Notes under the pieces: model-generated
Told to the model about the DNA's origin: nothing
Databases searched by the model: none
Seen by the model: only the letters and a program-made list of their open reading frames with translations
IMG/VR virus record: IMGVR_UViG_3300032246_001270
Reading direction: 5' to 3' (one strand)
From: a virus
Length of the DNA stretch: 64,000 nt
Part shown: positions 1 through 53,492 of the stretch, piece after piece
How the letters are laid out: every line of letters begins with the position of its first letter
How positions within the stretch are numbered: position 1 is the stretch's first letter
Made by a program: the position numbers and the translations under genes

Positions 1-417
1 TAATCTTTCTTTTATTTTATATAAACTTTTGTTAGTTCTTTTATAGTAATCTTCTTTCTTAAGTCCGTTTTCAGTCTTTAATTTAGAATACCAATTAACA
101 AATTTTTCAACTTCGGTTAATTGATTATGAATACTTGTAATACCTCTACTTATTTTAGCTTTTGGAGAACCATCTTCTTTTTTAAGTGCTAACCAACGAT
201 TTTCTTTTAAAGTCTTTTCTTCATCATCTTTAGCTAATACCATACCACTAACATCAGCTAATGCACCATCATCTTTTGTATCAGCTGCAGTTGGTTTCAT
301 TTCTAAAGGTTTTTTAGAATTTGCAGGAACATCGTTTTTTAACCAATCTTTTGCTTCTTCTAATTGAATTTCTTTAATTATTTCTCTAATAGTATTTTTC
401 AACTTAATATTATCCAT
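1..417 (-). CDS. Hypothetical protein, truncated by the window edge (head-module neighbour)
   Basis: Not in the ORF track. ATG at 417 overlaps the stop of 410..1285; reads MDNIKLKNTIREIIKEIQLEEAKDW... and stays open to position 1. Confidence 0.75.
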   Translation of the reverse strand, partial: MDNIKLKNTIREIIKEIQLEEAKDWLKNDVPANSKKPLEMKPTAADTKDDGALADVSGMVLAKDDEEKTLKENRWLALKKEDGSPKAKISRGITSIHNQLTEVEKFVNWYSKLKTENGLKKEDYYKRTNKSLYKIKERL

Positions 418-1285
418 TTACCTTTGATTTTAATTCTTTGATTAGTTCATAAGAAAGCATTATAGATGAAACTTGATTATCAGTTACAGTTTTGCCAAAT
501 TTCATTTTATCTAAAATAGAAATAGTTTCAGATAATTTTATTGTAGTAACTTTATCTTTAATTTTTAATTTTATTTCTTTTAAATTACTAATAATTTTAG
601 GTAATTCAATTGAAACATATTCTTTAAATTTAGTTGTATTTGACATATTGTTAATATATTCTTTTAACAATCCTTTTTGGTTGTCATCTAAATTTGTATA
701 TTTTTTATTGAAAGTTTCAACAAGAATCTTATAGGTTAATAATCTTAGGTCTTTATCTTGCTGTTTGTATGATTCTATTAATTTAGAATCTTCTGAGTTG
801 TTAGTTTTTGCTAAAGTAGGTCTTGATATAATGTTTTCAATTAGGGTTATTTTAGAATTAAATACATCCTTAATATCATAGTTTTCAGATTTTTTAGATT
901 CAAATACTTTATATATTGATGCTAATACCTTATAGTTAGTTATTGGAGAAGAAAGAAAATTTTCTAAATCAAATTTAGAATTTATCTCTTTAATAAGATT
1001 ATATTTTTCTTTTGTTAATTTAGTTTCATTTAACTTTGTATGAGCTTGAGATACAGTATCTACAAACATTTCGGCTTTTGATTCCGAATTGTATTTCTCT
1101 TTTAATAGTAAATCATAAAGACGTAATTCTTTATTTAATTCAGTACCTGCAGCAAAGAACTCTTTTACTATATGTTTTGCATTTTCAGTCTTATCTCCAT
1201 TAAGTACCTCTAATGTTATTTGTCTTACTAAAAGCTCAAATAACACTCCAGTATTCTTAACTTTGGAATGTTTTATTTTTTTCAT
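410..1285 (-). CDS. Hypothetical helical protein downstream of portal (possible prohead core/scaffold-associated)
   Basis: 291-aa Lys/Glu/Leu-rich ORF with its own late-type motif at 1327-1334; function inferred from position only. Confidence 0.6.
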   Translation of the reverse strand: MKKIKHSKVKNTGVLFELLVRQITLEVLNGDKTENAKHIVKEFFAAGTELNKELRLYDLLLKEKYNSESKAEMFVDTVSQAHTKLNETKLTKEKYNLIKEINSKFDLENFLSSPITNYKVLASIYKVFESKKSENYDIKDVFNSKITLIENIISRPTLAKTNNSEDSKLIESYKQQDKDLRLLTYKILVETFNKKYTNLDDNQKGLLKEYINNMSNTTKFKEYVSIELPKIISNLKEIKLKIKDKVTTIKLSETISILDKMKFGKTVTDNQVSSIMLSYELIKELKSKVNG

Positions 1286-1352
1286 TTATTTACCCTATAT
1301 TTAACCTACATCTATAAACTAACACATATAAATATAAACTTTTTAATGTTTA

Positions 1353-3134
1353 TTAAAATTTGGTGTCATCTAACAGGTTATTTTCATCTAAAAGGTCAGT
1401 TTTTTTTGTTTTTTCACTTAAAATCTTCTTTTTTGATGAAATCCCATTAATATATTCTTGTGCTAATTTTCTTTTTGATTCGTTTGTACGAGTTTCCCTT
1501 TTCCTCTCACCTTCATTTTCTTTATTCCCCAATGGGTCTCTACCTAACGGATGTTTATCTTTTCCGTATGTGTTTCCTTCTCTTGGTCTACCACCTTTAT
1601 CATTATCATTTATCTCCTGCTTCATTTTTTCAATCTCCTCCTCAACATTAGTTTGTTGTGGTGGATTTGCCGGGTCTTGTCCTTGCTGTTCTATTGAGTT
1701 ATAACGGAATCTATCTTTAAGGTCTAATACCATCTTAGCTCTTTCAGTATCCATTTCCTCCTCACTCATACCAAACACATTATGAAATACCCAATCACTA
1801 GATAACATATTTAATTGTTTTAAATCGCCGGCCAATCTTGTCTTTTCACTCCATAGATTTACTTTCTCTTGCTCATATATTGTAGAAGCGTTAGTTAAAG
1901 TAAGTTGAAAATTTGTCATTTCAGAATCATCTATTCCATGAGCTGCCAAATGAACAATAGCTATTTTATATAATTCACTAACAACTGTTCTTTGAATTCT
2001 TTCAATAGTTCTAGCAAAACGAACATCCTGTGCTGCAAGTGTTGCTTTACCACTTACATCTTCTTCATATCCTAAAAACGCTTTTGGAATTTTTAAAGCT
2101 GCAAATAATTTAGCTTTTAAATAATCAATATCTTCTATTGCTGCATATTCCAATCCTGCTAAATTTTCAATTGATGTACCACTATCTCCACCTCTAACAG
2201 GTAAAAAGAAATCTTCAGTAAGGTTTTGAATATTATATTTTAAATTATAATCTCCAGTATCTTTATTAACAAATGGAGTTTTTTTCATTTTGTTAATAAT
2301 TTTTTGCATATAGTTATCAACTTCTTGAGGGTTGATATTACCAATATCTATTTTGAATACTCTTTTTTCAGGTGCTCTCATAATACGATGAATTAACATC
2401 GCATCTTCCATCAATTGTAATTGTTTCCAAACTCTACGCCCACCTTCAATCATTGCTTTACCATACGGAAGGAAGTTAGTATCTGATAATAAACGGAAGT
2501 GAGCCATTTCATAGTTCTCATATTCTTTTTTACCAAATCTATCTAATTCAACTTTAAACTTAACATAATTTTGATTATTAGGGTCAGTACCTTCTAACCT
2601 TTCTGTGTTATATACAGAATATGGTATTACATTTATAATACCTTTGCCCTCTGCTATTTCTAATGCTAAAAAGAAATCTCCATATTTAACTAAATTTCTA
2701 ACCCAAGGCCATAAATTAAATTCTACATTTATTATATCGTAAAAAAGATTATGAAGTAATGAACTTACATTTTCATTTGTTGATTTAATTGTAAGAATAT
2801 CACCATATTCATTTTTAGTTGTAGATTCATCCGAATATATATCTAATGCAGATGCTATAATTGGGTCATTATCCATAGCATCGTAATCTCTAAATAACTC
2901 TCTACGAACCTGATGGTATGCCATAGATTGTGCACCCTGATTGGTTTCGTAATAAGACCTTTGTAACTTTGTATATCTATCTCTTAGATTTACAAAATTT
3001 GTATTCATTTGTCTATCATCTGTATCTACAACCTTACGCTTACCATCTTTATCAACGGTTACGATTGCGCTGGTTGAGAACAATTTCTTTAATCTACCAA
3101 AAAAACTTCTACCTTCCATTTCTTGCTCTGCCAT
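1353..3134 (-). CDS. Portal protein, T4 gp20-like
   Basis: Motifs MDNDPIIASALDIYSDE, KQLQLMEDAMLIHRIMRAPEKRVFKIDIGN, EDFFLPVRGGDSGTSIENLAG and KLFAALKIP; adjacent to the terminase. Confidence 0.93.
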   Translation of the reverse strand: MAEQEMEGRSFFGRLKKLFSTSAIVTVDKDGKRKVVDTDDRQMNTNFVNLRDRYTKLQRSYYETNQGAQSMAYHQVRRELFRDYDAMDNDPIIASALDIYSDESTTKNEYGDILTIKSTNENVSSLLHNLFYDIINVEFNLWPWVRNLVKYGDFFLALEIAEGKGIINVIPYSVYNTERLEGTDPNNQNYVKFKVELDRFGKKEYENYEMAHFRLLSDTNFLPYGKAMIEGGRRVWKQLQLMEDAMLIHRIMRAPEKRVFKIDIGNINPQEVDNYMQKIINKMKKTPFVNKDTGDYNLKYNIQNLTEDFFLPVRGGDSGTSIENLAGLEYAAIEDIDYLKAKLFAALKIPKAFLGYEEDVSGKATLAAQDVRFARTIERIQRTVVSELYKIAIVHLAAHGIDDSEMTNFQLTLTNASTIYEQEKVNLWSEKTRLAGDLKQLNMLSSDWVFHNVFGMSEEEMDTERAKMVLDLKDRFRYNSIEQQGQDPANPPQQTNVEEEIEKMKQEINDNDKGGRPREGNTYGKDKHPLGRDPLGNKENEGERKRETRTNESKRKLAQEYINGISSKKKILSEKTKKTDLLDENNLLDDTKF

Positions 3135-3205
3135 AATTTATTATTAATTTCTAAAAAATTCTATTTTGACATTATATAACATAAATATCGTAAAATATCA
3201 AAACC

Positions 3206-4801
3206 CTATAACCATTGAGATAAATCTTCAAATCCATCACCAACTCTCATTTTCCAAGGATTATCATCCATTGAATTATTACCTCCATAAATTCCCTGAT
3301 TTGCATTTGATGATATACCACTAACAGCTTGCTTTGTTAAATCAATACCCTGCTGTCTTAAACGAAGTGCAGTATCTCTAACCCATAATCCAATTGAAAA
3401 TGCCATTACCAAGTCATCATTATAACCTTTCATAGCTTCAGCTCTACCATTCATATAAATAAATGTAAATAGCTCATCTATTAAACGTGATGACCTAACT
3501 ATAATTCCTTTTTCTCTAAAGTAATCAGTTAATTTAGATATAATTAAAGGTCTAGTTTTAGAAGTAGTTGAGAAACCAGCTACTAATCCCTTTTCTTCTG
3601 CTCTATATCTATTTGTCATTTGATGCTCAATATCAATATATTTTAAATCCTTACTCATATAAAATAAGTTTTTATATCCTCTATCAATTACTTGCTGAAT
3701 TGTAGCCCAACCAATGTTTGCGTTCTCTATGACAAGTAAAGCATCATTATATTCAGTTGAAAGTGATACTAAGAAGTTTCCAAAATCTTTTGTATCTACT
3801 TTACCTTTATATTCTGCTACTTGAACCGAATTAACTATATCAATTACATGACATGTGGAATAATCGGCTCCATCACCTCTAGCCACATCGGCTACTACCA
3901 TATAAGATTTTGAATAATCAGGATATTCCCATTTCCAAAGATTTCCATCAAATCCACCTTTTTCAATTGGGTCTTGTATATAGGTTTCTTTATAGAACAT
4001 TAGGGTTTCGGGTTCAATTACTGTTTCACCAGAAGATACAAAGTCACAATCACACTCCTGTGCTGCTTTCTTAGGTCCTAATAATTTCTCTTGTTCATCT
4101 CTCCATTTTTGGTCTCTTTCAGGGTGTACAGTCCAATGTAATCTGATTGTATTGAATGGATTTCTACTTTCTTCTGCTCCTAACCAAGTTTGATGAAACC
4201 AATTACCAACACCATTAGGAGTAGAAAGGGCAATACAACTACCACCCGTTGAAAGGGTAGACTGAGCTGATACCCAAATCTCATCAATATCATCAATAAA
4301 AGCAGCCTCATCAAATATTAGAAGTGATAAGGCTTCCGAACGTCCTGCATCAGGAGAACTAGCAATAGCCTTAATTTGAGAACCATTTTGTAAACGAAGG
4401 GAAAGCTTGTTATCTTCCATTGAACCTCCCTTAAGCCATGTTGGAAGCAAATCATGCATTACTCTAACTTTTGTTACTAAGTTCTTTGCAACCTCTTGCT
4501 TTGTTGCAATTACTAACACATTAAAATCAGAATTAAATATCATTTTCCAAAGTGAGAATCCAGCACAAAGTGTTGAAATGCCAGTTTGACGTGATTTTAA
4601 AACTACATTAAATCTATTATCTTTAAATTGTGTTAAGGTCTTTTCTTGAAATGGAAATAGTTGAAAAGGTATCTTACCTCTAACAGGGTGTTGAATCATA
4701 CAATATTTCTTCATAAAATGTATCGGGTCTACCGCACATTTTTTGTATTCTTCTGCAATTATTTCTTTTAAAGATTTTTTTTGTATTATACCTGTACTCA
4801 T
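3206..4801 (-). CDS. terL: Terminase large subunit, T4 gp17-like
   Basis: Q motif FQLFPFQ, Walker A KSRQTGIST, Walker B LLIFDEAAF, coupling motif STPNG, nuclease motifs ADVARGDGADYS and NDDLVMA. Confidence 0.95.
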   Translation of the reverse strand: MSTGIIQKKSLKEIIAEEYKKCAVDPIHFMKKYCMIQHPVRGKIPFQLFPFQEKTLTQFKDNRFNVVLKSRQTGISTLCAGFSLWKMIFNSDFNVLVIATKQEVAKNLVTKVRVMHDLLPTWLKGGSMEDNKLSLRLQNGSQIKAIASSPDAGRSEALSLLIFDEAAFIDDIDEIWVSAQSTLSTGGSCIALSTPNGVGNWFHQTWLGAEESRNPFNTIRLHWTVHPERDQKWRDEQEKLLGPKKAAQECDCDFVSSGETVIEPETLMFYKETYIQDPIEKGGFDGNLWKWEYPDYSKSYMVVADVARGDGADYSTCHVIDIVNSVQVAEYKGKVDTKDFGNFLVSLSTEYNDALLVIENANIGWATIQQVIDRGYKNLFYMSKDLKYIDIEHQMTNRYRAEEKGLVAGFSTTSKTRPLIISKLTDYFREKGIIVRSSRLIDELFTFIYMNGRAEAMKGYNDDLVMAFSIGLWVRDTALRLRQQGIDLTKQAVSGISSNANQGIYGGNNSMDDNPWKMRVGDGFEDLSQWL

Positions 4802-5537: not shown

Positions 5538-8500
5538 TTATTTATCGAAGAAAATTCCTAAAATTTGATTTAGGGGTGCGAATGCACCTGTTAATTTGTA
5601 AGTATTACCACTATATACAAATACAATACCCTCATTTGGTACAATTTTATCAAACCCACCCAAAGCTTTAAGCCTCTCTAACTCTAATTTTAATTTTGCA
5701 ATCTTCTTAGGGTCACCACTTGCTTTTACCTGTGATATTGTTGATTCCAAACGAGCTACCATTTGTTTTCTAGCAGAAGATGGATTTGCTGTAAGTACTG
5801 ATTCGGTAAATGCTAATACATCTGCACCAACTCCTAAAAATATCTCCTCAAATTTCATAAGATTATCTTTAGATATTTTTTGTTGGTCTTTTTTATCAGT
5901 TTGCTCAGCCCATCCTCTTATTTTATCATCTTGTATTTCTGCTATACGGAAACTCTTGTCACCAAAAGCCCATCTTTTAATTAATCCTATTTTTTGTTGT
6001 GCATCTAATTTCTTTGCACCTTTATTTACAAAATTAGACCACCATGCTTGGTGATAATCAGCCACACCATCACTATCAGAAAGATTAAATTCTTTTTGAA
6101 GTTTATTAATCATTGAAATATACTTTCCTTGCTTTTTAGAAAGGTCTTCTGATTTAGGAAGTGATTGCATTGGAGGTCCCTGAATTGTGTATTGGGATTG
6201 AACATGCTGATTTACTTGCTTAATCATTCCTGCTAATATTTTAGCTGCTTGTTGATTTTCTCCAACAATTGTACCATCAGTATCATATTCAAATGTACCA
6301 TGAAATACCAATAGTGGTTGATTATATGGAATTACATTTACCGATGTCGGATATATTACTTCTAAATTCATAAAGCAAGAACCATCTTTGAATATCTTTT
6401 TTCTTTGTTCTTCACTTAATGCCGCAATAGCTGCTGAAAGGTCTTTCATTGCGTAGTTGTATGCATCTGTAAGTCCACCTCTACCAGCAAACTTATCCGC
6501 CACCTGTCCTATTGTCATAGCACCCTCACCTTTATTCTTTAAATGTGATTTGTTACGAGCTGCAACTAATCTACCATTTACCCAACTAACTGCTAATGCT
6601 TGACCATCAGTCTTCTCTCTTGCTAATTCTAAATCACCATTTAATGCTCTTACTACAATTTGTTTTAAATCACCAAAAGTAAGATTCATTTCAATATCAA
6701 ATGGATGATTCATATGTCCATACGCTCCACCTTCGTTAATATTTTCTTTTTGTAATTTTTGAATTTCTTTATTTAATTTATCAATTTCTGCTCTAACTTT
6801 CATTTGTGCCGGTGATTGTGGCATCATTTTTAAAGCTTTAATGAATAAAACCATTCTTTGCTTTTCCAAATCTTTTAAAGAACTTTCATTAACTGGATTT
6901 CTTAATTTTACACTTTTAGCAATATGTCTTTCCTCATCTTTAATAGTATCACCATCTATATCAATAGTTGGGTCCATATTAATTCTTTCATCTTTGCCAG
7001 GTTGATTATCATATTGATTAGGATATGCATCAGTTGTACCAGCCGTACTCTTACCATCGCCCTTTATAAAATCAGATGGTAATTTATATCCGTATTTTAA
7101 CGTACGATTATATTTGTGTACACTATCATCATGATTATCTATTGGAAGTTTTGATTGATTTTTTAATCTTTTTAATTCATGCTCTGATGGTATTTTATGA
7201 TAAGTTCCCCATCCAGGTAAATCTTTTGTATAATATCCTGCTATATCATAGTCCTCCCATCCTTTATTCCAAGCATATCCAGTTGTTGAATTACCATCAT
7301 TACCCATATCATTACCACTATATTCTAATAAACTTTCGTTTTTAATTTTTGATAACTTTTCGTAGTAATGTAAATCTTCCCATAAATGGTCCATAGCTAT
7401 TTCAGCTGCAATACTAACATCCGTTGTGTGTTCCATTTCAACTTTAATACCAGCCACCAATCTAGGTTTAATATATTCTTTTGCAAATTGTTTTGGGTCA
7501 TAATATTCTTTAACATCCCACTTCTTAGCTAAATCAATTAAAGTTTTACCTTTTGCTAACCCACCAGGTATTCTATCTTTCTGTACTGCTATCTCATCAA
7601 CTTGCTCATATCCACTCATTCCTTTGTTGTTAAGTTTTTTACTATTTTTTTTAACATCTTTAGAATCAGGTGCTCCATTAATATATCCACCCGGTAAACT
7701 TAAACCTATACCAGCTCCTCCGGGAAATCCCATTTCATCTAATAGTTCATCAAAATCAGAAACTATTTCTTTAATATCTTCTTTTGAAATTATTGTATCG
7801 TTTTCTTTATCAGATAATTCCCAAAATCTTTTAGCTTTTTTAATTGGTTTTTTTTCTTTAATCTCTTGCCAATCTTCCGTAGTATGTGGGTCTTTAGCAG
7901 GGTCTAAATTTGTATTAGCTACATTAGATACATTATATGTAGCTTGACGTAGCATCATTCCCTTTTCGTTATCTTTTTTATTTTTACCTTGAACCCAATC
8001 TGCTTTTGGAATATGTAATTGTGTATATCCACCATTTTTAAACCAAAATTCAGGTTTATGTTTATTTAATATTCTTTTATCACCTGCATTTAAATGTGAA
8101 GTTGATGGTTCTCCAGCTTCTCCATCAAACCCACCCAAAGCAGTTTCCTTTAAATTTTCTTTTTTAGGTATTCTAAATGTTACAGCTTTTTTACCATTAA
8201 TTGTTGGCATTCCCCATTCATCCTCACCAATTGATTTAACAACTACTTTTTTGTTTTTAAATTTTCCCATCAACAAAGTATCACCAACTTTTACGTTTAA
8301 TTTAATTTCTTCGTTAATACATTCTTTTAATCCCTTTAATTTAAGAGTAATTAATTTGAATATTTGAGAGTCAAACTTTGGATATGCTTTTGTAAAATTT
8401 TTCTTTCTATCAGCTTCACTACCAGCACTTAACCAATAACGAACATCAGTACCACTAATAGGATTTGATTGTGCCGGCGAAGCGTAAACATACCCTTTAT

Positions 8501-8924
8501 CTAAATACCCCTGCTCTACTTTACCTTTATATGGTGTAAAGTACTTACCACTTAATCTATTTTGGTCCTTCTCACCAACCACAACTATTAAACCAGTTGT
8601 GTTGGAATCATATTTTTTAAGTATTTCCTCAGGAGCATATGGATTTTTGATATTAACAATTTTAGATGATGGTATTCCAAACATCTGCATCATTATTGCT
8701 TTTTTTTCCTTAAAATTAAATGGAGATTTTTTTGAATCGGTAACATTAGAAGTTCCGATATAAACACTATCCTTACCGAATTTGCGTACTAAATTATCAT
8801 AAGTTGCAAAGTGGCCCTTATGAAAAGGTTGAAAGCGGCCTGAATAAACAACTATCACATTGTCTATCGAAGCCGCTTTCTCCAATAATATTGATTCCAC
8901 TAAAAATTTTGTCAATCCTTTCAT
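5538..8924 (-). CDS. Multidomain protein: N-terminal HIGH-family nucleotidyltransferase, central small domains, C-terminal RNA-ligase-like nucleotidyltransferase
   Basis: YSGRFQPFHKGH and ISGTDVR (HIGH/SxT motifs); central GIKVEMEHT...IAMDHLWEDLHYYEKL; C-terminal EKTDG, NLEVI, LVFH, EGIVF and YKL matching ligase motifs I, III, IIIa, IV and V. Confidence 0.75.
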   Translation of the reverse strand: MKGLTKFLVESILLEKAASIDNVIVVYSGRFQPFHKGHFATYDNLVRKFGKDSVYIGTSNVTDSKKSPFNFKEKKAIMMQMFGIPSSKIVNIKNPYAPEEILKKYDSNTTGLIVVVGEKDQNRLSGKYFTPYKGKVEQGYLDKGYVYASPAQSNPISGTDVRYWLSAGSEADRKKNFTKAYPKFDSQIFKLITLKLKGLKECINEEIKLNVKVGDTLLMGKFKNKKVVVKSIGEDEWGMPTINGKKAVTFRIPKKENLKETALGGFDGEAGEPSTSHLNAGDKRILNKHKPEFWFKNGGYTQLHIPKADWVQGKNKKDNEKGMMLRQATYNVSNVANTNLDPAKDPHTTEDWQEIKEKKPIKKAKRFWELSDKENDTIISKEDIKEIVSDFDELLDEMGFPGGAGIGLSLPGGYINGAPDSKDVKKNSKKLNNKGMSGYEQVDEIAVQKDRIPGGLAKGKTLIDLAKKWDVKEYYDPKQFAKEYIKPRLVAGIKVEMEHTTDVSIAAEIAMDHLWEDLHYYEKLSKIKNESLLEYSGNDMGNDGNSTTGYAWNKGWEDYDIAGYYTKDLPGWGTYHKIPSEHELKRLKNQSKLPIDNHDDSVHKYNRTLKYGYKLPSDFIKGDGKSTAGTTDAYPNQYDNQPGKDERINMDPTIDIDGDTIKDEERHIAKSVKLRNPVNESSLKDLEKQRMVLFIKALKMMPQSPAQMKVRAEIDKLNKEIQKLQKENINEGGAYGHMNHPFDIEMNLTFGDLKQIVVRALNGDLELAREKTDGQALAVSWVNGRLVAARNKSHLKNKGEGAMTIGQVADKFAGRGGLTDAYNYAMKDLSAAIAALSEEQRKKIFKDGSCFMNLEVIYPTSVNVIPYNQPLLVFHGTFEYDTDGTIVGENQQAAKILAGMIKQVNQHVQSQYTIQGPPMQSLPKSEDLSKKQGKYISMINKLQKEFNLSDSDGVADYHQAWWSNFVNKGAKKLDAQQKIGLIKRWAFGDKSFRIAEIQDDKIRGWAEQTDKKDQQKISKDNLMKFEEIFLGVGADVLAFTESVLTANPSSARKQMVARLESTISQVKASGDPKKIAKLKLELERLKALGGFDKIVPNEGIVFVYSGNTYKLTGAFAPLNQILGIFFDK

Positions 8925-42385: not shown

Positions 42386-43546
42386 TTAAGAATAGTAACA
42401 TTTTAAACCGGCTTCATATTTTCCATCTTTCATTGTAAGTAACTGCCTTCTTTGTACTCCATTTTTTTTACAACTTATATGTATCCAAATGGAATTACCA
42501 TGTTCAAAAATCATTTGGTCAAATGGTAAGTTTGCTTTTACCCAATTTGCAATAGGAAGATAACTTTGAGGTGATACGCCGGGGAATTGCACATCAACAG
42601 CTTCACCTTTTTGATGTTGAGATACTCCACCCGGAATACTAGCAGTTCCTCTAAATGCAGAATTTACTCTAACATTTGGATATTTTGCTTTTAATGGTTC
42701 TAATATATTTTGAGCTACATTTTGTAAATTGCATATTATTTCTTCTTCAGTTAAACCAACTTGAGCTTTTATTTTATGTGCAAATATACATCCAATTGAT
42801 AAATCTCTTAATCTATAATTTGGAGATAGTTTTCCATCATAATCTTTTCCAGAGTTACACTTAACAGGATAAGCTTCTTTTTTTGATATGGGTTCACTAC
42901 TACCTTCAGCTACTTCTGCAATTTGAGTAGCTTCTTCCTCTGTTAGTTCTACATATGGTGGATTATCTTCAGGCAATTCTTCTCTAATTGCTTCTATTTG
43001 TTCTCCAGCTTCTTCACCACCATCAGTTAATACTTCCGCACCGGTTTCCATAACTACTTCTTGTGCACCTTCAACGGTATTGTTATCGTCTGGTATTGTT
43101 GCTAATAGTTCTTCGGTTGGAACTTCATTTATTTGATTTGGTGGTACTGATATTGTTACAATTGGTGGTTGCCAAATTCCCGGATTAACTACTATATTTG
43201 ATGAAACTCCAACATTTGATGTAGAACCTGGAGCTGGAATTATTGGTATTGGAAATTCATTTAAAGTTGCACCTGTCCAATATGCTATAACTCCGTTTCC
43301 CATTTGTCCTACTAAATCATATGGACCATTTGTTGATTGACCTGCCAATAATGCTACTTTGAATAGAGATTCCATAGCATCAACATTTCCTTTTTTAATA
43401 GAAACATGATTTAATGTATCACTACCTCTTTTAATTGCTGCATCATATTCTGTTGCGTATAATTTAGCTACCGTATCAATATCTTGAATTGATTCTGGGC
43501 TGTTTGCGTATCTTAAAATATTATCTTTAAATATTTGCCAAGACAT
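42386..43546 (-). CDS. Baseplate-region protein with peptidase M15A (Zn) domain
   Basis: LSPNY, ILEPL, NSAFR, SQHQKGEAVD, FDQMIFE and WIHIS. Confidence 0.8.
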   Translation of the reverse strand: MSWQIFKDNILRYANSPESIQDIDTVAKLYATEYDAAIKRGSDTLNHVSIKKGNVDAMESLFKVALLAGQSTNGPYDLVGQMGNGVIAYWTGATLNEFPIPIIPAPGSTSNVGVSSNIVVNPGIWQPPIVTISVPPNQINEVPTEELLATIPDDNNTVEGAQEVVMETGAEVLTDGGEEAGEQIEAIREELPEDNPPYVELTEEEATQIAEVAEGSSEPISKKEAYPVKCNSGKDYDGKLSPNYRLRDLSIGCIFAHKIKAQVGLTEEEIICNLQNVAQNILEPLKAKYPNVRVNSAFRGTASIPGGVSQHQKGEAVDVQFPGVSPQSYLPIANWVKANLPFDQMIFEHGNSIWIHISCKKNGVQRRQLLTMKDGKYEAGLKCYYS

Positions 43547-45221: not shown

Positions 45222-46043
45222 TTAGGAATTAATTTCCTTTACTCGGATTTGTATTTTGGGAGAATATCCCTTTGGTAGTTCGTTTCTTACACCTTCAAAT
45301 GATTCTACTTCGTTTGAAAAATATTCTATTTCAAGTATTTTATCGGTAAGATTCATTATAGTCTGAGAGGATGTAAACATAGTAGAAGTAGTTCTTCTCA
45401 TATTTAATTGAGATTCTTTTTTATAGAATTGCTTTCTCATTGCAGCTCCTATTTGAGTCCAATCAGTTACTTTTTCAACTGTTTTTTCAGCTGATATCTT
45501 TCTCATTTTAGAACTAAGATATTTTACTCCAGATGTGTATCCTGCATCGGTAAATGTGTGTCCGTGATTTGTTCTTACAGTTAAATCTTCTTGGTTATGC
45601 AATTTAATATCAGGTTTATGTTTGGATGTAGCCTCAATACTAATCATATTTTTTGGAGATGATATAAATGTATGTCCTTTTAATGCTAACTTACTATCAC
45701 CCTTAAATGTAAGTGCTGATTTAAGTGCTTCTTTTAAATTCTTTTGTTTGATAATATTTCTCATCTTTTGTCCATCAGGACCTGGCTTTCCAACTTTTTT
45801 AACTAATTTCTTTTCAGCCTCATCAGCTCCAACTAATAGTGCAGCGTTTACTACTCCTATTCCAAACTCATTCATACCCTCACTCCAATCGGTAATCATA
45901 TCATGTAAGTATGCAACTTCCACACCATCTAAAATGGTATGTACTACTTCTAATTTAGGTTTGTAAGCTCTATCTCTATTCTTAGCTAGGATAAACTTAT
46001 CATTAACCTCTTTAGATACGATTATGCACTCTGAAAGTTTCAT
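45222..46043 (-). CDS. Ntn-hydrolase (C45/choloylglycine hydrolase/NRDE-like) with a 5-residue leader before the Cys nucleophile
   Basis: MKLSE-CIIV...ILAKNRDR, EGMNEFGI and RTNH. Confidence 0.75.
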   Translation of the reverse strand: MKLSECIIVSKEVNDKFILAKNRDRAYKPKLEVVHTILDGVEVAYLHDMITDWSEGMNEFGIGVVNAALLVGADEAEKKLVKKVGKPGPDGQKMRNIIKQKNLKEALKSALTFKGDSKLALKGHTFISSPKNMISIEATSKHKPDIKLHNQEDLTVRTNHGHTFTDAGYTSGVKYLSSKMRKISAEKTVEKVTDWTQIGAAMRKQFYKKESQLNMRRTTSTMFTSSQTIMNLTDKILEIEYFSNEVESFEGVRNELPKGYSPKIQIRVKEINS

Positions 46044-46316
46044 TTAGAATCCTATTGAAATTACATCACCATCTGCTTCAACCCAACGAATTTTTAATGC
46101 TAATAATTTTTTAAGAGTATCAGCTCCAAAACGATAACCACTTCCAAAATTACCTTTTGCTGGAATATCCACAACCATTCCGTGAATACCAGCAAAAATT
46201 TGAGAATGGTCTGCACCAATTACTTTTTGGAATGCTACAACCTGTTTTTGTTGAATGGGTTTTAATTCTTTGAATTTTACTTCAGATGCTTCGTTTAGTT
46301 GAGTAAGTTTTATCAT
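46044..46316 (-). CDS. Small protein with MIKL..LNE leader (putative internal head protein)
   Basis: Starts MIKLTQLNE-A. Confidence 0.6.
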   Translation of the reverse strand: MIKLTQLNEASEVKFKELKPIQQKQVVAFQKVIGADHSQIFAGIHGMVVDIPAKGNFGSGYRFGADTLKKLLALKIRWVEADGDVISIGF

Positions 46317-46970: not shown

Positions 46971-47465
46971 TTAATTTATTTCGTGATTATCATCGTTACT
47001 CAAATACTTAAATTGCTTTTGCATACCATTCCAATAATTATCATCATCAGGATTTTCATGTTTATTAAAAATGTTTATTTTATTTAACAATCCTTTTAAT
47101 CCTTTTTCATCTTTACTTTTTTGATAGTCCGCTTTTAATTTATCATATTCTTTCTTTCTATCTTTATAAAAATCATCCATATCATGTTGATATCCTTTAA
47201 GTCCATTTTTAGTAGCTAATGCCATAGCTGCTTTTCTAGCAGGATGTGTCATTGGATATCCAAAAGCTGTTTTTACCGATATTTCATTTCCAGTTTCAGG
47301 ATTTTTTACTTTTAATTTTTCAAACTTATCTCTTAACTCTTTATTCTTTTTTGCTAATGCTAACCTTTTTTGTTTTTGTGCAGTAGTTTCTCTACGTTTG
47401 GGTGAGCTAAGAACAGGTACAAAAATAAATTCGTTTAATAAAGATTTTAATTTGATATCTGCCAT
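46971..47465 (-). CDS. Basic protein with IKL..LLNE leader (putative internal head protein)
   Basis: Starts MADIKLKSLLNE; contains KVKNPETG; late motif at 47484-47491. Confidence 0.55.
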   Translation of the reverse strand: MADIKLKSLLNEFIFVPVLSSPKRRETTAQKQKRLALAKKNKELRDKFEKLKVKNPETGNEISVKTAFGYPMTHPARKAAMALATKNGLKGYQHDMDDFYKDRKKEYDKLKADYQKSKDEKGLKGLLNKINIFNKHENPDDDNYWNGMQKQFKYLSNDDNHEIN

Positions 47466-47501: not shown

Positions 47502-49067
47502 TTAAAATATCATTTTTGACCCAATTTGGATATTATTCAATAGGGAAAAACTATCACCAAAGGACATTGCCGCTTTATAAGATGCTGAAAATCCAAATCT
47601 TTTACTTAATTTGTAATCATATCCCAACCCTACCATTGCTCCCGGTATTCTACTTACAGTACTTCCACCAGTCACCGTATTCCAAGCTAATGGAGATTGC
47701 ATTACAAATACTTGCGGAGTTAGGGTTACCTTTCTACTATAAGGGAATGGTTTCATCCAAAATCCTACTAAAGATGAACTTAAACTTACATCATATCCAC
47801 CTGTTGTTGCGTTTTGCATCATTAAAGTAATCACACCAACATTATATCCGAATGTTCCATATTTAGGGTGAGGTTTAATCCAAGTGTATCCGTTAAGGTT
47901 CATTAGAGTTCCTTTAAGATATGCAAATGTAGTTCCGTATGAATGTATTGCGTTTAATTGTCCGTTCTCAAAATCCATCTTTGTAATACCACCACTTAGT
48001 GCAAATTGGTTTAGGGTACTCCAAATAAGTGCGGTAGCTGAATATGATTTATCTCCCATCAATGAAGAACGAGATACACCCACACTCATCATTACAGCGT
48101 ATTTACCTTCCGCATCTTCCGTACCAGCCAAATCAGATGCTAACATCATTGGATTAGCTGCTACTTTCTTTTTTTCCTCTTTTTTCTTTTCTTCCTTCTT
48201 ATCCTCTTTTTTTTCTTCTTTAGACTCTTCTTTTTTTTCGTCCTTCTTCTCCTCTTTGGTTTCCTCTTTCTTTTCTTCTTTTTTACTTTCCGATTTAGTT
48301 TCCTCTTTCTTTTCTTCAGTCTTACTTTCCGATTTACTTTCAGATTTAGTTTCTGATTTTGTTTCGGTTTTAGTCTCCGTTTTAGTTTCAGTCTTTGTTT
48401 CCGTAGATGAGCTAGATGATGAAGATGAACTACTACCAGAACTGCTTCCAGAACCTCCAGAAGCACTGCTTCCTGATGATGCCGGCGGTGGAGCGGATGA
48501 ACTACTGCTTGGTGGTGGTGGAGGGGCTGATGCCGTTGGTGGTGGGGCAGTTGGTGGTGGTGGAATTGCTCCCGTTGCTGCTCCACTAGCTGCAGAACTT
48601 ACTGCTCCACTAGCTGCCGATGAAGCTGCTGAACTAGCCGCTCCACTTGCTGCTCCACTAGCCGCAGAACTAGCAGCTCCACTTGCTGCTTTTGCTGCTG
48701 CATCTGCTACTGCCTTTGCTGCTGCATCTGCTGCTGCTTGTGCCGCTGCAGCTGCTGCCGCTGCTGCCGCTTGTGATACTGTGTTTTGTACAGTTTGTTG
48801 AACTACGGTATTTGTAGGACAAGCCATAGTTGAATAAGCTGCATAAGTTGCGGATATCCAAACTTGAACTGCACCAGCCATTACTTCGGTTGGTGAGAAT
48901 ACTCTTATTTGATTGTAGAATGATACCGTTGCAAACCCATTAGTCATAGTTGTAGTGGCTACTTTAATTTCACCAGTACACTTATCCTTAAATGTTTGTG
49001 TATATGTTTGCCCCATTACTATTTGACAAAACAATACTAAAACAAATCCTAATATGTATTTTTTCAT
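47502..49067 (-). CDS. Secreted protein with long low-complexity linker and C-terminal outer-membrane beta-barrel
   Basis: Signal peptide ending VMG-Q; poly-Ala, SSAASGAA, poly-Pro, Ser/Gly, TETK and KKEE tracts; alternating beta strands; terminal Phe. Confidence 0.7.
   Translation of the reverse strand: MKKYILGFVLVLFCQIVMGQTYTQTFKDKCTGEIKVATTTMTNGFATVSFYNQIRVFSPTEVMAGAVQVWISATYAAYSTMACPTNTVVQQTVQNTVSQAAAAAAAAAAQAAADAAAKAVADAAAKAASGAASSAASGAASGAASSAASSAASGAVSSAASGAATGAIPPPPTAPPPTASAPPPPPSSSSSAPPPASSGSSASGGSGSSSGSSSSSSSSSSTETKTETKTETKTETKSETKSESKSESKTEEKKEETKSESKKEEKKEETKEEKKDEKKEESKEEKKEDKKEEKKKEEKKKVAANPMMLASDLAGTEDAEGKYAVMMSVGVSRSSLMGDKSYSATALIWSTLNQFALSGGITKMDFENGQLNAIHSYGTTFAYLKGTLMNLNGYTWIKPHPKYGTFGYNVGVITLMMQNATTGGYDVSLSSSLVGFWMKPFPYSRKVTLTPQVFVMQSPLAWNTVTGGSTVSRIPGAMVGLGYDYKLSKRFGFSASYKAAMSFGDSFSLLNNIQIGSKMIF
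48160..48775 (-). repeat. Low-complexity coding repeats (Ala, SGAA, Pro, Ser, TETK, KKEE)
   Basis: Visible in DNA (gctgct, gctccact, ggtggt, ttcttc runs) and in the protein. Confidence 0.9.
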
Positions 49068-51718: not shown

Positions 51719-52054
51719 TTACTTTGTTTTTATAATCAATTCACCCAATACCTCAATTTTACCAACTAATTCCTGAAATTCTATTTGTTCCATATTAGTT
51801 GCTTCAGGCATCGAACACAATTGTCCCATTAGTTTTTTGTATTCCATTTTAACCATTTTCATATCCAACTGTCCATCTTTTGCTTTCTTGTAGTATGGAA
51901 GTTTTACTTTGAAATGATGGTAAGTCAAAAGAGCCGGCCCACCTTTCTCTTTTGCATCGTTAGTGATTTTAGTAGCACCATCCAATCTCTTACCAGCAAA
52001 AGTTTCTAAATCTCCACTAACTTCTTCTTTTAATATATTACTTAACTTTATCAT
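51719..52054 (-). CDS. Small protein with MIKL..ILKE leader (putative internal head protein)
   Basis: Start reassigned to ATG 52054 (MIKLSNILKE-E), 1 nt after the upstream stop. Confidence 0.6.
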   Translation of the reverse strand: MIKLSNILKEEVSGDLETFAGKRLDGATKITNDAKEKGGPALLTYHHFKVKLPYYKKAKDGQLDMKMVKMEYKKLMGQLCSMPEATNMEQIEFQELVGKIEVLGELIIKTK

Positions 52055-52055
52055 A

Positions 52056-52535
52056 TTATTTACAGGTTTTCCAACCACCACCTTTTGATTTGTAATTTTT
52101 TGCAGCCCAGCCATTTGCATATGCTGATGGATATACATCAAACTTACTTTTTGCTGCTGCTTTAGATGCTGACCATTTTTCTGGGTCTGTTGGACAATTT
52201 CTTTCTAAAAATAATCCCATTGCTTCTTCAATTACCTCATGTTTCTTTTTACCGGCACAATGTGCTTTTTGTGAGAATCCTTTTGGATTAGAACAATTGA
52301 TAGATTTTTTATATTTTGCACTCCAAGTTTCATTCATAGAACCTAATCCACATCTTTCTAAAAATTCATCAGTATTTACTTCAATATTTTCTTTTTTAAA
52401 ATCTCTAAGTCTATCTAATGCCATTTGTTTACGATTATCAATATCCTTAACTTGGTTAAGCATATCAACAATACCATCAACCATTTCTTTTTGATGTGGT
52501 TGTTCTTCTTTTAATAAATTACTTAAATATATCAT
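52056..52535 (-). CDS. Mosaic of small basic domains with MIYL..LLKE leader
   Basis: MIYLSNLLKE; WSAKYKKSINCSNPKGFSQKAHC; KFDVYPSAYANGW...KGGGW. Confidence 0.6.
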   Translation of the reverse strand: MIYLSNLLKEEQPHQKEMVDGIVDMLNQVKDIDNRKQMALDRLRDFKKENIEVNTDEFLERCGLGSMNETWSAKYKKSINCSNPKGFSQKAHCAGKKKHEVIEEAMGLFLERNCPTDPEKWSASKAAAKSKFDVYPSAYANGWAAKNYKSKGGGWKTCK

Positions 52536-52981
52536 TATGCTCCTGTTTTTACAAATGTTGGTTTCTGTCCTTTACTTTGTTCACCACCTTTTTTACTATC
52601 ACCTGCTTTGGATTGTGCACTTCTTTTTCTTTTTACAAATGCTGCTCTACCATCAGGTCCTAACTTTGCTGCTTTCTCTTTTGATAAACAAGCTGCGTAT
52701 GCTGAGCCTGATTTACTATCTCCACATTTACCTACTTTTTTTCCTTTACTATCATATCTATCCCAACCACCACCACTACTTGAACCTTCACCACCTTTAC
52801 CAAACCATTTACGAAGGTCTTCTTTAATTGGTGTATTATCATTTCCGCATTTATGGCAAAGATATGGATTTGTTTCACCACCATCATAACCATCAGATAT
52901 ATCCCAATGCCAGCCACACTTATCGCATGTAACTACACCATCTTTAAAAATTTCGTTTAATATATCGGTAAGCTTTATCAT
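52535..52981 (-). CDS. Mosaic protein (Zn ribbon + basic domain) with MIKL..ILNE leader
   Basis: Start reassigned to ATG 52981 (MIKLTDILNE); CDKCG...CHKCG; EDLRKWFG...CG...ACL. Confidence 0.6.
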   Translation of the reverse strand: MIKLTDILNEIFKDGVVTCDKCGWHWDISDGYDGGETNPYLCHKCGNDNTPIKEDLRKWFGKGGEGSSSGGGWDRYDSKGKKVGKCGDSKSGSAYAACLSKEKAAKLGPDGRAAFVKRKRSAQSKAGDSKKGGEQSKGQKPTFVKTGA

Positions 52982-52982
52982 A

Positions 52983-53492
52983 TTACCACTTTCTACAACT
53001 CCAATAGTTTGCTTTTGTTCTTGGACCCGGATTATCACAATTCATTCTTGCTCTAAAAGATTTTCTAGCTGCAGGATTTGATTTTCTGATTTTCATTCCT
53101 TTCTGTCCGAAGTTTACTTTAATGATTTTACCAGTCTTAGGATTCTTTACATATACCTTAAACTTCTTAACATCACCTTGCATTGGTTTACCTAACTTTA
53201 CTTCTCTACCTTGATATTCTGCTTCGTAAACACAATTACAATTTGCTTCTTCTAATTGAGTTGAATAACCTTTTAAGAAGTTTATGAAATCATCCATATC
53301 TTCTTGCTCAACATCCAATTCATCATAATCATCAATTGGATTATCGGTTGGAGTATCACCAAGTTTGTAAGCTTGGTCTACATAAGCATCTTCGTTTTTA
53401 GGCTTAATGCCTTTTTTCTTCATATTGATTGCAATTGCAGCCTGTCGTGCTGCATTTGCTGCTTCATTTAATAAGTTATTTAATTTTATCAT
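52983..53492 (-). CDS. Mosaic protein with MIKL..LLNE leader
   Basis: MIKLNNLLNE; EAEYQGREVKLGKP; KVNFGQ...RKSFRARMNC...ANYWSC. Confidence 0.6.
   Translation of the reverse strand: MIKLNNLLNEAANAARQAAIAINMKKKGIKPKNEDAYVDQAYKLGDTPTDNPIDDYDELDVEQEDMDDFINFLKGYSTQLEEANCNCVYEAEYQGREVKLGKPMQGDVKKFKVYVKNPKTGKIIKVNFGQKGMKIRKSNPAARKSFRARMNCDNPGPRTKANYWSCRKW

What the first reader, a model, noticed from the sequence alone, without database searches (positions are those of the whole stretch)
45222..46043. Ntn-hydrolase zymogen apparently unmasked by the prohead protease (MKLSE|C)
Seen: the Cys of the Ntn pattern (CIIV...AKNRD...GMNE.G...TNH) is residue 6, directly after L-S-E. Known: Ntn hydrolases need a free alpha-amino group on the nucleophile, normally produced by Met removal or autoprocessing. 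Inference: cleavage at the (L/I)xE site would activate the enzyme only inside the maturing capsid, so it stays inactive in the producer cell and is armed for the next host. Possible roles include amidase, deacylase or de-conjugase activity against a defence system. The substrate is unknown.
Basis: partly seen in the sequence, partly recalled or inferred. Interest (0 to 1): 0.85.

Follow-up and report, generated by a model that had tools for sequence, protein, structure and literature searches.

The report
Phage Ntn hydrolase behind protease site
A phage enzyme of the N-terminal-nucleophile hydrolase type carries a five-residue cap ending in the exact cutting motif of the phage's own capsid-maturation protease, so the virus probably uses that protease to switch the enzyme on, a way of activating this enzyme class that I found no description of.

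Summary
Observation confirmed. ORF 45222-46043 (-) encodes 273 aa starting MKLSE|C, with an in-frame stop directly upstream. An alignment-based AlphaFold model (pLDDT 92) has the Cys-Ntn fold. Its residue 6 superposes on the nucleophile Cys of isopenicillin-N acyltransferase, NAAA, bile-salt hydrolase and penicillin V acylase (Z 16-21).

The family has more than 1,100 clusters and is almost only in phages. Its N-termini fall into three exclusive classes:
- (L/I/V)-x-E|C (173 unique sequences: P1 Glu 100%, P3 L/I/V 97%, P2 free).
- (K/R)-x-(A/G/S)|C.
- M|C.

The Glu class matches the T4 gp21 cleavage motif. It occurs in phages with T4-type heads, where the S77 protease was found in 17 of 33 contigs. 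S77 was found in 0 of 18 contigs of the K/R-x-A class. The window itself holds T4-type terminase and portal genes. By synteny its protease gene lies just past coordinate 1. Seven other window ORFs carry MIKLxxLLxE leaders.

Interpretation partly supported:
- Unmasking by the prohead protease is the best reading (about 0.55).
- Self-cleavage, the norm for the C45 family, remains a rival (about 0.3).
- The class-versus-protease link rests on a single evolutionary split.
- Recurrent M|C forms argue against an obligatory "inactive in the producer cell" role.
- Packaging into the capsid is not shown.
- The substrate is unknown.

The scan had already flagged the leader family on this window (e1-5913446).

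The parts
45222..46043 (-). Whole ORF: 273-aa precursor of a C45/AAT-like Cys-Ntn hydrolase (stop codon 45222-45224)
   Evidence: ORF list. AlphaFold2 with a 90-sequence alignment gives pLDDT 92.3 and pTM 0.91. Foldseek and VIA-align match Ntn hydrolases.
46029..46043 (-). Five-residue leader MKLSE. L3-S4-E5 is a T4-type (L/I)-x-E prohead-protease site placed directly before the nucleophile.
   Evidence: Sequence. P1 Glu in 173 of 173 and P3 L/I/V in 168 of 173 unique homologues. Residues 1-3 have pLDDT below 50, so the leader is modelled as an unstructured tail.
46026..46028 (-). Cys6 codon: predicted N-terminal nucleophile of the mature enzyme
   Evidence: Structural alignments begin at model residue 6, opposite Cys103 of mature IAT, Cys126 of NAAA, Cys2 of bile-salt hydrolases and Cys1 of penicillin V acylase.
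45225..46028 (-). Predicted mature chain (residues 6-273) with conserved K21-N22-R23-D24-R25, G56-x-N58-E, T158-N159-H160 and R217
   Evidence: Invariant and near-invariant columns. 27 of 90 family members match Pfam AAT PF03417.
46044..46316 (-). Upstream 90-aa ORF with leader MIKLTQLNE|A. Its stop codon abuts the ATG of the target.
46971..47465 (-). 164-aa ORF with leader MADIKLKSLLNE|F
51719..53492 (-). Four consecutive ORFs with leaders MIKLNNLLNE (start 53492), MIKLTDILNE (52981), MIYLSNLLKE (52535) and MIKLSNILKE (52054)
5538..8924 (-). 1128-aa multidomain protein with leader MKGLTKFLVESILLE|K and an internal I-N-E|GGAYGH domain border
   Evidence: Pfam CTP_transf_like plus DUF5661. The INE border is at residue 731. 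Relatives have separate ORFs starting MEGGAYGHMNHPFD or MNHPFD.
1..4801 (-). T4-type head module: large terminase 3206-4801, gp20 portal 1353-3134, two small ORFs 410-1285 and 1-417 (the latter runs off the window). In relatives the S77 prohead protease gene follows directly, so here it should lie just beyond coordinate 1.
   Evidence: Pfam Terminase_6N and Portal_T4. ORFs flanking the protease in L085/L086 match window 1072-413 and 363-1. Gene order in L174 is portal, small ORFs, S77, scaffold, gp23 MCP.

Best explanation
The gene encodes a phage-specific, C45/AAT-like cysteine Ntn amidohydrolase made as a capped precursor. The cap (MKLSE) is a minimal version of the MIKLxxLLxE leaders found on several other proteins of this phage. 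It ends in the (L/I)-x-E motif cut by T4-type (S77, gp21-like) prohead proteases. The phage's own maturation protease cuts after Glu5 and frees the alpha-amino group of Cys6, which an Ntn hydrolase needs for catalysis. The enzyme would therefore become active only late in infection, most probably inside the prohead as a packaged internal protein that is delivered to the next host. It would then hydrolyse an amide (linear C-N) bond in a still unknown substrate.

Shown: the fold, the nucleophile position, the conservation of P1 and P3, the presence of S77 in relatives, and the leader family.

Inferred: that S77 makes the cut, that the cut happens in the prohead, that the protein is ejected, and the enzyme's role.
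For: 1. Ntn fold, with residue 6 aligned to the nucleophile Cys of IAT, NAAA, BSH, PVA and TANGO2; Z 16-21, rmsd 2.7-4 A over about 200-220 residues (Foldseek E 1e-8 to 1e-5).
2. 173 unique leaders end in Glu. P3 is L97, I51, V20, M4, T1. P2 takes 12 or more residue types. The Glu is encoded by both GAA and GAG.
3. The published gp21 specificity is I/LxE (PMC12991175). The processing determinants of the T4 capsid targeting sequence are its residues 8 and 10, that is P3 and P1. The Alt propeptide is only 7 residues (PMC9026906).
4. S77 (PF03420, 87-117 bits) was found in 17 of 33 contigs of the Glu and M|C classes, and in 0 of 18 contigs (2.25 Mb, four of them 275-376 kb) of the K/R-x-A class.
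5. Major capsid proteins of S77-bearing relatives keep L-(L/I)-(S/D)-E|(A/V/T) just before the mature gp23 domain. G001 has the same L-S-E tripeptide.
6. Seven other ORFs in the window start with MIKLxxLLxE-type leaders. In L030, L032 and L033 the Ntn gene sits inside an array of genes starting MKLSELRQLIREE.
7. The sister clade uses a different P1 (A/G/S) and P3 (K/R) with the same catalytic residues, so the fold itself does not demand Glu at P1.
8. Within the clade the leader either keeps the P3-P1 motif or is lost entirely to M|C. One true exception was seen (P0143, Gln at P1).
Against: - The protease gene is not in the window. Its presence is inferred from synteny.
- C45 enzymes are by default autoproteolytic (the NCBIfam NF040521 name; IAT precursor and mature structures 2x1c and 2x1d).
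- The Glu class and the A/G/S class are each one clade of the domain tree. The S77 correlation therefore rests on one evolutionary split and could be shared ancestry.
- The leader has 5 residues, and 3-4 in many homologues. That is shorter than the 10-residue T4 targeting sequence, so capsid targeting by the leader is doubtful.
- M|C forms in the same clade need no protease.
- No virion proteomics exist for any relative. MA9V-1 has only SDS-PAGE (PMC10537231).
- The gene's neighbours vary: baseplate, terminase, or leader-gene arrays.
Confidence: 0.55

Rival explanations
1. Autoproteolysis. As in isopenicillin-N acyltransferase, penicillin V acylase and NAAA, the precursor cuts its own X-Cys bond by an N-to-S acyl shift. 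The conserved P3 aliphatic residue and P1 Glu would be lineage-specific cis determinants that seat the leader in the enzyme's own cleft. The likeness to the gp21 motif would be coincidence or shared ancestry.
For: - Relatives match the C45 'autoproteolytic acyltransferase/hydrolase' model (NF040521, E down to 8e-13, below the cut-off) and Pfam AAT.
- The closest folds include self-processing precursors: 2x1c, 2iwm, 6dxw, 5u84.
- The sister clade has a small P1 (A/G/S), as at the Gly102-Cys103 site where mature IAT begins. It sits inside 500-2800-aa proteins in phages where no S77, S78 or S80 protease was found. Self-cleavage therefore probably exists in the family.
- The motif class maps to a single split of the tree.
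Against: - The two clades share the same catalytic residues but have opposite P1/P3 chemistry.
- P1 Glu with P3 L/I/V is exactly the specificity of the protease these phages encode. It equals their own capsid-protein maturation site.
- The leaders resemble those of unrelated proteins in the same genomes.
- Among the Ntn self-cleavage sites I can recall (IAT, penicillin V acylase, NAAA, acid ceramidase, proteasome), none has Glu at P1. This is recalled, not searched.
Confidence: 0.3
2. The prohead protease does unmask the enzyme, but in the cytoplasm as a late-infection timer. The enzyme is not packaged. It acts in the producer cell, for example on envelope or lysis-related amides, or on a late-acting defence.
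For: - T4 gp21 cleaves a soluble host CD-NTase at I/LxE or xxE sites during infection and when expressed alone (PMC12991175).
- Leaders of 3-5 residues are too short to act like the 10-residue T4 targeting sequence.
- In the window the gene lies next to baseplate and lysin genes.
Against: - M|C variants would be active from the time of synthesis, so timing cannot be essential.
- Some homologues carry 11-12-residue leaders similar to those of other presumed cargo (MSFLDTEQLVE, MPQLFDRIILGE).
- Distant relatives are domains of giant multidomain proteins of the kind described as delivered effectors (PMC5512222).
Confidence: 0.2
3. The leader is not removed, or is trimmed by a host peptidase. Cys6 would then not act as an N-terminal nucleophile, or the protein would have a non-catalytic role.
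For: There is no direct evidence of cleavage for any family member.
Against: - M|C forms arise repeatedly and place Cys at the processed N-terminus.
- Cys and the R-D / N / N-H / R set are near-invariant.
- The alignment to solved Ntn enzymes starts exactly at Cys6.
- Strict conservation of P1 and P3 would be unexplained.
Confidence: 0.05

Closest known systems
Acyl-CoA:isopenicillin N acyltransferase (IAT; Pfam AAT PF03417, MEROPS C45; PDB 2x1c, 2x1d, 2x1e)
   Same: Same alpha-beta-beta-alpha Ntn fold (Z 19-20, rmsd 2.8-2.9 A over 215-222 residues). The Cys nucleophile lies at the first residue of the catalytic chain (model residue 6 opposite Cys103). 27 of 90 family members reach Pfam AAT.
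   Different: The phage protein lacks the roughly 100-residue N-terminal alpha chain (NCBIfam model positions before about 94 are unmatched). It has a 5-residue leader with Glu at P1 instead of Gly. The query itself does not reach the Pfam or NCBIfam models. Sequence identity is about 11%.
T4 internal proteins IPI-III and Alt with their capsid targeting sequence, cut by gp21
   Same: A short N-terminal leader ends in (L/I)-x-E and lies directly before the functional chain. The processing determinants are at P3 and P1 (PMC9026906). The phage has a T4-type head module with an S77 protease in relatives. Several unrelated proteins share a leader.
   Different: There is no sequence relationship. 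The T4 leader is 10 residues with targeting residues at positions 4 and 7, whereas this one has 5 residues. In T4 the cut only releases the protein from the core, whereas here it would create the catalytic N-terminus. Packaging is not shown here.
Choloylglycine hydrolase family (bile-salt hydrolases with M|C; Bacillus sphaericus penicillin V acylase with a short self-removed propeptide; MEROPS C59)
   Same: The fold is the same, with Cys aligned (Z 16-18). The family shows the same dichotomy: Met-Cys starts exposed by Met removal versus short propeptides (recalled for C59; seen here).
   Different: No HMM match. In C59 the propeptide is removed by the enzyme itself and ends in Gly (recalled), whereas here it ends in the protease motif.
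NAAA / acid ceramidase (MEROPS C89) and TANGO2/NRDE proteins (3gvz, 8sv7)
   Same: These are the top structural neighbours (3gvz Z 21.3; NAAA beta chains Z 19-20; TANGO2 Z 16), with the Cys nucleophile aligned.
   Different: These are eukaryotic lysosomal or cytosolic proteins. NAAA is self-cleaved at acidic pH (recalled). There is no sequence-level match except two weak TANGO2 hits among 90 members.
Polyvalent proteins of phages and conjugative elements (Iyer et al. 2017, PMC5512222)
   Same: Distant relatives of the domain lie in 500-2800-aa proteins together with 2H phosphoesterase, nucleotidyltransferase, superoxide dismutase, Zeta-toxin-like and DUF5661 domains.
   Different: That paper does not mention an Ntn domain (0 occurrences of 'Ntn'). 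The window protein stands alone.

Membership tests
Ntn hydrolase superfamily (Cys nucleophile) | Four-layer alpha-beta-beta-alpha fold | tested here: met
   Model pLDDT 92.3. Z 16-21 to more than 40 solved Cys- and Ser-Ntn enzymes. Foldseek probability 1.0.
Ntn hydrolase superfamily (Cys nucleophile) | Nucleophile is the first residue of the first central beta strand of the mature chain | tested here: met
   Strand E7-13 starts right after Cys6. Alignments start at residue 6, opposite Cys103 (IAT), Cys126 (NAAA), Cys2 (BSH) and Cys1 (PVA).
Ntn hydrolase superfamily (Cys nucleophile) | Free alpha-amino group on the nucleophile, produced by processing | not testable with these tools
   Only indirect evidence: recurrent M|C forms and conserved cleavage-type motifs before the Cys.
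Pfam AAT PF03417 / MEROPS C45 / NCBIfam NF040521 | Match to the family model above its cut-off | tested here: not met
   The query has no hit at E <= 0.1. 27 of 90 relatives hit PF03417 (best E 8e-10). P0151 and P0165 score 30.9 and 25.0 bits against a cut-off of 23.2. NF040521 hits stay below its 85-bit cut-off. The query is therefore a divergent relative, not a scored member.
Pfam AAT PF03417 / MEROPS C45 / NCBIfam NF040521 | N-terminal pro-region (alpha chain of about 100 residues) that stays with the enzyme after self-cleavage at Gly-Cys | tested here: not met
   Only 5 residues precede the Cys. Relatives align from model position about 94 onward. P1 is Glu, not Gly.
Pfam AAT PF03417 / MEROPS C45 / NCBIfam NF040521 | Autoproteolytic activation | not testable with these tools
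   This needs expression of the precursor without the phage protease.
Substrates of T4-type (S77) prohead protease / leader-bearing internal proteins | (L/I)-x-E directly before the mature N-terminus | tested here: met
   L3-S4-E5|C6, conserved in 173 unique homologues. Motif as published (PMC12991175, PMC9026906).
Substrates of T4-type (S77) prohead protease / leader-bearing internal proteins | The same phage encodes an S77 protease | tested here: inconclusive
   The protease is not in the window. The window ends one gene short of where relatives carry it. 17 of 33 related contigs carry it. No whole genome is held.
Substrates of T4-type (S77) prohead protease / leader-bearing internal proteins | Leader of about 10 residues able to target the protein into the prohead core | tested here: not met
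   The window leader has 5 residues. Homologue leaders are mostly 4, 5 or 7 residues, and some have 11-12. Other ORFs of the window have full 9-12-residue leaders.
Substrates of T4-type (S77) prohead protease / leader-bearing internal proteins | Presence of the processed protein in virions | not testable with these tools
   No virion mass spectrometry exists for any relative.

The most novel reading that the evidence does not exclude
A widespread, phage-restricted family of cysteine Ntn amidases has handed its obligatory activating cut to the capsid maturation protease. The residues before the nucleophile follow the specificity of the head protease of each phage lineage: (L/I/V)xE in T4-type heads, (K/R)x(A/G/S) in a jumbo-phage lineage with another head type. 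The enzyme would be armed only in the prohead and delivered with the DNA as an effector. This would be the first Ntn hydrolase activated in trans by a viral protease, and a new class of capsid-delivered enzyme.
Probability: 0.3. Interest if true: 0.85.

Novelty: new variant of a known kind. Interest (0 to 1): 0.66.

Why it matters
Ntn hydrolases are textbook self-activating enzymes. A family whose nucleophile is exposed by another protease, here a viral maturation protease, would be a new activation logic for the superfamily.

It would also be an example of a phage using capsid maturation as an enzymatic switch, beyond simply releasing cargo from the scaffold. It adds an enzyme of unknown substrate to the poorly known set of proteins that large phages may inject. 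Distant relatives sit in giant multidomain proteins beside phosphoesterase, nucleotidyltransferase and kinase-like domains, which points to host takeover or counter-defence.

The three exclusive N-terminal classes give a clean and cheap experimental design. A cultured relative exists (Chryseobacterium phage MA9V-1/-2).

Tried and rejected
- Single-sequence AlphaFold gave pLDDT 32 and was useless. I repeated it with an alignment.
- Sequence searches of the PDB with the protein and with two profiles found nothing.
- PHROGs and Pfam gave no hit for the query itself. The weak DUF5662 and DUF1706 hits are below cut-off and I disregarded them.
- No whole genome is held for the window, so the protease could not be sought directly.
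- The search for related loci on genome contigs failed twice for lack of a conserved stretch. I replaced it with a degenerate DNA pattern, which found one MAG contig in 185,579 species genomes. That contig belongs to the K/R-x-A class, so no cellular (L/I)xE|C form was found that could refute the protease link.
- In the K/R-x-A jumbo phages I looked for S77, S78, S80 and gp23 and found none. ClpP is present in 3 of 4, but its neighbours are small ORFs and not a head module. I do not call it their prohead protease, and how that class is processed stays open.
- The lipoprotein lipobox reading of x-(A/G/S)|C was rejected, because the leaders have 5 residues and no hydrophobic segment.
- A generic N-terminal [LIV]xE regex over the window was too permissive. 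Only the specific MIKLxxLLxE-type leaders are used as evidence.
- Only 4 of 10 fetched protease-downstream regions contained a recognisable capsid protein.
- I did not run complex prediction, because this is a transient enzyme-substrate pair and the protease would come from another genome.
- The polyvalent-protein paper does not mention Ntn domains.
- A literature search found no paper that links Ntn hydrolases to prohead proteases.
Full report
**1. What is there**

The minus-strand ORF 45222-46043 encodes 273 residues beginning MKLSECIIVSKEVNDKFILAKNRDRAY. The codon before the ATG is an in-frame TAA, which is also the stop of the upstream 90-aa ORF. The leader is therefore exactly five residues, and Cys6 is encoded at 46026-46028.

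The window is about 30% G+C and all its genes are on one strand. It carries these phage genes:
- thymidylate synthase;
- T4-type large terminase (3206-4801) and gp20 portal (1353-3134);
- a baseplate block directly downstream of the target: gp25-like 40253-40681, gp6-like 38213-40243, and an M15 lysin protein 42386-43546.

It is a large phage with a T4-type morphogenetic core. No whole genome is held for it.

**2. The fold**

The query has no Pfam, PHROG, NCBIfam or PDB sequence match. A single-sequence fold failed.

With a 90-sequence alignment, AlphaFold2 gives pLDDT 92.3 and pTM 0.91. Residues 1-3 are below 50, and a strand starts at residue 7. Foldseek finds IAT, CV2077, bile-salt hydrolases, penicillin V acylases, NAAA and TANGO2 at probability 1.0.

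VIA-align gives Z 16-21. In nearly every mature-enzyme row the alignment starts at model residue 6, opposite the nucleophile: Cys103 of IAT, Cys126 of NAAA, Cys2 of BSH, Cys1 of PVA.

Of the family members, 27 of 90 reach Pfam AAT (PF03417). Two distant fused relatives exceed its cut-off. Several hit NCBIfam 'C45 family autoproteolytic acyltransferase/hydrolase' below the cut-off, aligned from model position about 94 onward. This means they lack the roughly 100-residue pro/alpha chain.

The protein is a divergent C45-like Cys-Ntn hydrolase without the alpha chain.

**3. The family and its N-termini**

The family is large: 1,166 clusters at 90% identity in near-length proteins and 456 representatives at 50% identity. 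It is essentially phage-only. A degenerate DNA pattern for KNRDR(27 residues)WxEGxNE found one contig, in a MAG, among 185,579 species genomes. Only Chryseobacterium phages MA9V-1 and MA9V-2 among 50,697 phage records carry it.

Across 297 unique N-termini there are three exclusive classes:
- **Glu class (173 sequences).** P1 is Glu in all. P3 is L97, I51, V20, M4, T1. P2 takes 12 or more residue types, and P4 and P5 are free.
- **A/G/S class (76 sequences).** P1 is A/G/S and P3 is always K/R.
- **M|C class (43 sequences).**

Apparent exceptions are mostly regex artefacts. One true exception has Gln at P1.

Leaders of the Glu class are mostly 4, 5 or 7 residues, sometimes 11-12. In multidomain proteins the Cys lies 75-430 residues into the chain. 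The Glu is encoded by both GAA and GAG, and P3 by several codons, so selection acts on the residue.

In M|C loci an in-frame stop lies a few codons upstream with no alternative start (L036 and L037), so these starts are real. Met removal before Cys is expected from the known specificity of methionine aminopeptidase (established knowledge).

**4. Link to the prohead protease**

T4 gp21 cuts after Glu in I/LxE (PMC12991175). In the T4 capsid targeting sequence the processing determinants are residues 8 and 10, that is P3 and P1. Asp at P1 blocks processing. N-terminal propeptides range from 7 residues (Alt) to 65 residues (gp23) (PMC9026906).

Pfam Peptidase_S77 was found in the following:

| Contigs searched | S77 found |
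|---|---|
| MA9V-1 | 1 of 1 |
| Close IMG/VR relatives | 4 of 4 |
| Contigs with Glu-class multidomain or divergent forms | 4 of 5 |
| Further fragments of the Glu and M|C classes | 8 of 23 |
| **Glu and M|C classes, total** | **17 of 33** |
| **K/R-x-A class (2.25 Mb, four of 275-376 kb and 79-100% complete)** | **0 of 18** |

Fisher's exact test on the two totals gives p = 1e-4. The four large K/R-x-A jumbo contigs also lack S78, S80 and a gp23-type capsid protein, so they have a different head lineage.

In the window, the ORFs at 410-1285 and 1-417 match the two ORFs that directly precede the protease gene in L085 and L086. In the 164-kb relative G001 the order is Ntn, small ORF, TerL, portal, three small ORFs, S77, scaffold-like protein, gp23 MCP. 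The window's protease should therefore lie just beyond coordinate 1.

The capsid proteins of four diverged S77-bearing relatives keep L-(L/I)-(S/D)-E|(A/V/T) just before the conserved mature domain. In G001 it is L-S-E|A at residue 61, with the Pfam Gp23 match starting at 72. That is the same tripeptide as in the target.

**5. Leader family**

- MIKLNNLLNE
- MIKLTDILNE
- MIYLSNLLKE
- MIKLSNILKE
- MADIKLKSLLNE
- MIKLTQLNE
- MDNIKLKNTIRE

The 1128-aa protein at 5538-8924 starts MKGLTKFLVESILLE. It also has an I-N-E|GGAYGH border where relatives start separate ORFs.

In relatives the Ntn leader resembles leaders of other proteins of the same phage. One example is MPQLFDRIILGE|C beside MRDLIKFLVESLIGE in L082. 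In L030, L032 and L033 the Ntn gene lies in an array of genes starting MKLSELRQLIREE. MKLSE looks like a minimal remnant of such a leader that keeps only the cleavage motif.

**6. Weighing the readings**

For protease unmasking:
- the exact match of P3 and P1 to the protease's specificity;
- the same site in the phage's own capsid protein;
- the leader family;
- a sister clade with the same catalytic residues but a different P1 and P3;
- the all-or-nothing evolution of the leader, which either keeps the motif or is lost to M|C.

Against protease unmasking:
- C45 enzymes normally cut themselves.
- On a 346-sequence tree of the domain, the A/G/S class forms one clade and the Glu class the other. 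The association with S77 is therefore a single evolutionary event and could be shared ancestry.
- The protease gene is not in the window.
- There is no proteomic evidence for any relative. MA9V-1 has only an SDS-PAGE gel.

The claim was that the cap keeps the enzyme harmless in the producer cell and that cleavage happens only in the capsid. M|C forms arose at least 11 times within the clade, including in a contig that carries S77 (L035 in G042). Leaders of 3-5 residues are unlikely to target the protein to the core. gp21 can also cut soluble proteins.

I put protease-dependent unmasking at about 0.55, self-cleavage at about 0.3, and packaging with ejection at about 0.35 overall.

**7. Function**

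The substrate is unknown. The nearest folds hydrolyse or transfer acyl-amide bonds with hydrophobic acyl groups: IAT, NAAA, acid ceramidase, BSH and PVA.

Gene neighbours are not conserved. They are baseplate genes in the window, terminase genes in many relatives, and leader-gene arrays in others.

Distant relatives are domains of 500-2800-aa proteins that also carry 2H phosphoesterase, poly(A)-polymerase-type nucleotidyltransferase, superoxide dismutase, Zeta-toxin-like and DUF5661 domains. This composition is like the polyvalent effector proteins of phages (PMC5512222), although that paper lists no Ntn domain.

My working guess is an amidohydrolase used in host takeover or counter-defence. 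This is inference only.

**8. Novelty**

Cys-Ntn hydrolases are known, and so are gp21-processed, leader-bearing phage proteins. I found no description of the combination, in which a maturation-protease site abuts the Ntn nucleophile so that the viral protease would create the catalytic N-terminus. I also found no description of the three-way alternation of unmasking signals. I rate it a new variant of a known kind. The idea is computationally well supported, experimentally untested, and readily testable in MA9V-1/-2.

Noticed in passing
window 46044-46316, 46971-47465, 51719-53492, 1-417: Seven ORFs of unrelated sequence start with a shared MIKLxxLLxE-type leader ending in (L/I)xE. This looks like a T4-style capsid-targeting and cleavage tag. 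The scan already noted it as e1-5913446.
   Followed up: partly
window 5538-8924: An 1128-aa protein (cytidylyltransferase-like plus DUF5661) has the leader MKGLTKFLVESILLE and an internal I-N-E|GGAYGHMNHPFD border. In relatives (L003, L012, L081) the downstream part is a separate ORF starting at that point. This suggests a polyprotein cut by the prohead protease.
   Followed up: partly
L030, L032, L033 (whole loci): Arrays of 5-8 small genes each begin MKLSELRQLIREE or MKPQQLKQLIREE. The Ntn gene (MIKE|C) is embedded among them. This is a cargo-gene cluster with a highly conserved leader.
   Followed up: no
P0132-P0260; P0151, P0165, P0133, P0142, P0202: The Ntn domain occurs at N-terminal or internal positions of 500-2800-aa proteins. 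These also carry 2H phosphoesterase, poly(A)-polymerase head, Fe/Mn superoxide dismutase, Zeta-toxin-like, DUF5661, DUF5872 and DUF5856 domains.
   Followed up: partly
G005-G008 (IMG/VR contigs of 275-376 kb): Jumbo phages carrying the (K/R)x(A/G/S)|C class have no detectable S77, S78, S80 or gp23. Three of four encode a ClpP-family protein among small ORFs. Their head protease is unidentified, and the strict K/R at P3 is unexplained.
   Followed up: partly
L175 8502-12545 (OR050627.1 126501-130544): In Chryseobacterium phage MA9V-1 the S77 protease domain is the N-terminal part of a 1347-aa protein annotated 'prohead core protein serine protease'. It is possibly a protease-scaffold fusion.
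   Followed up: no
L176 685-4035 (-): On a MAG contig labelled Actinomycetota, the Ntn gene (TREA|C) follows an 1116-aa protein with a nucleotidyltransferase-like N-terminus and an HEFGH zinc-peptidase motif. The contig is probably phage DNA that was binned with a bacterium.
   Followed up: no
window 47502-49067: A 521-aa protein has a signal-peptide-like start, long Ala/Ser/Pro and Glu/Lys/Thr low-complexity runs, and a C-terminal region rich in alternating hydrophobic residues. It has no family match.
   Followed up: no
L174 10211-10975 (-): In relative G001 a 254-aa ORF lies between portal and protease. It has the leader MKITREQLRTIVGEVLQEE and a dockerin / EF-hand-like calcium-binding motif. 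It may be a prohead core protein.
   Followed up: no
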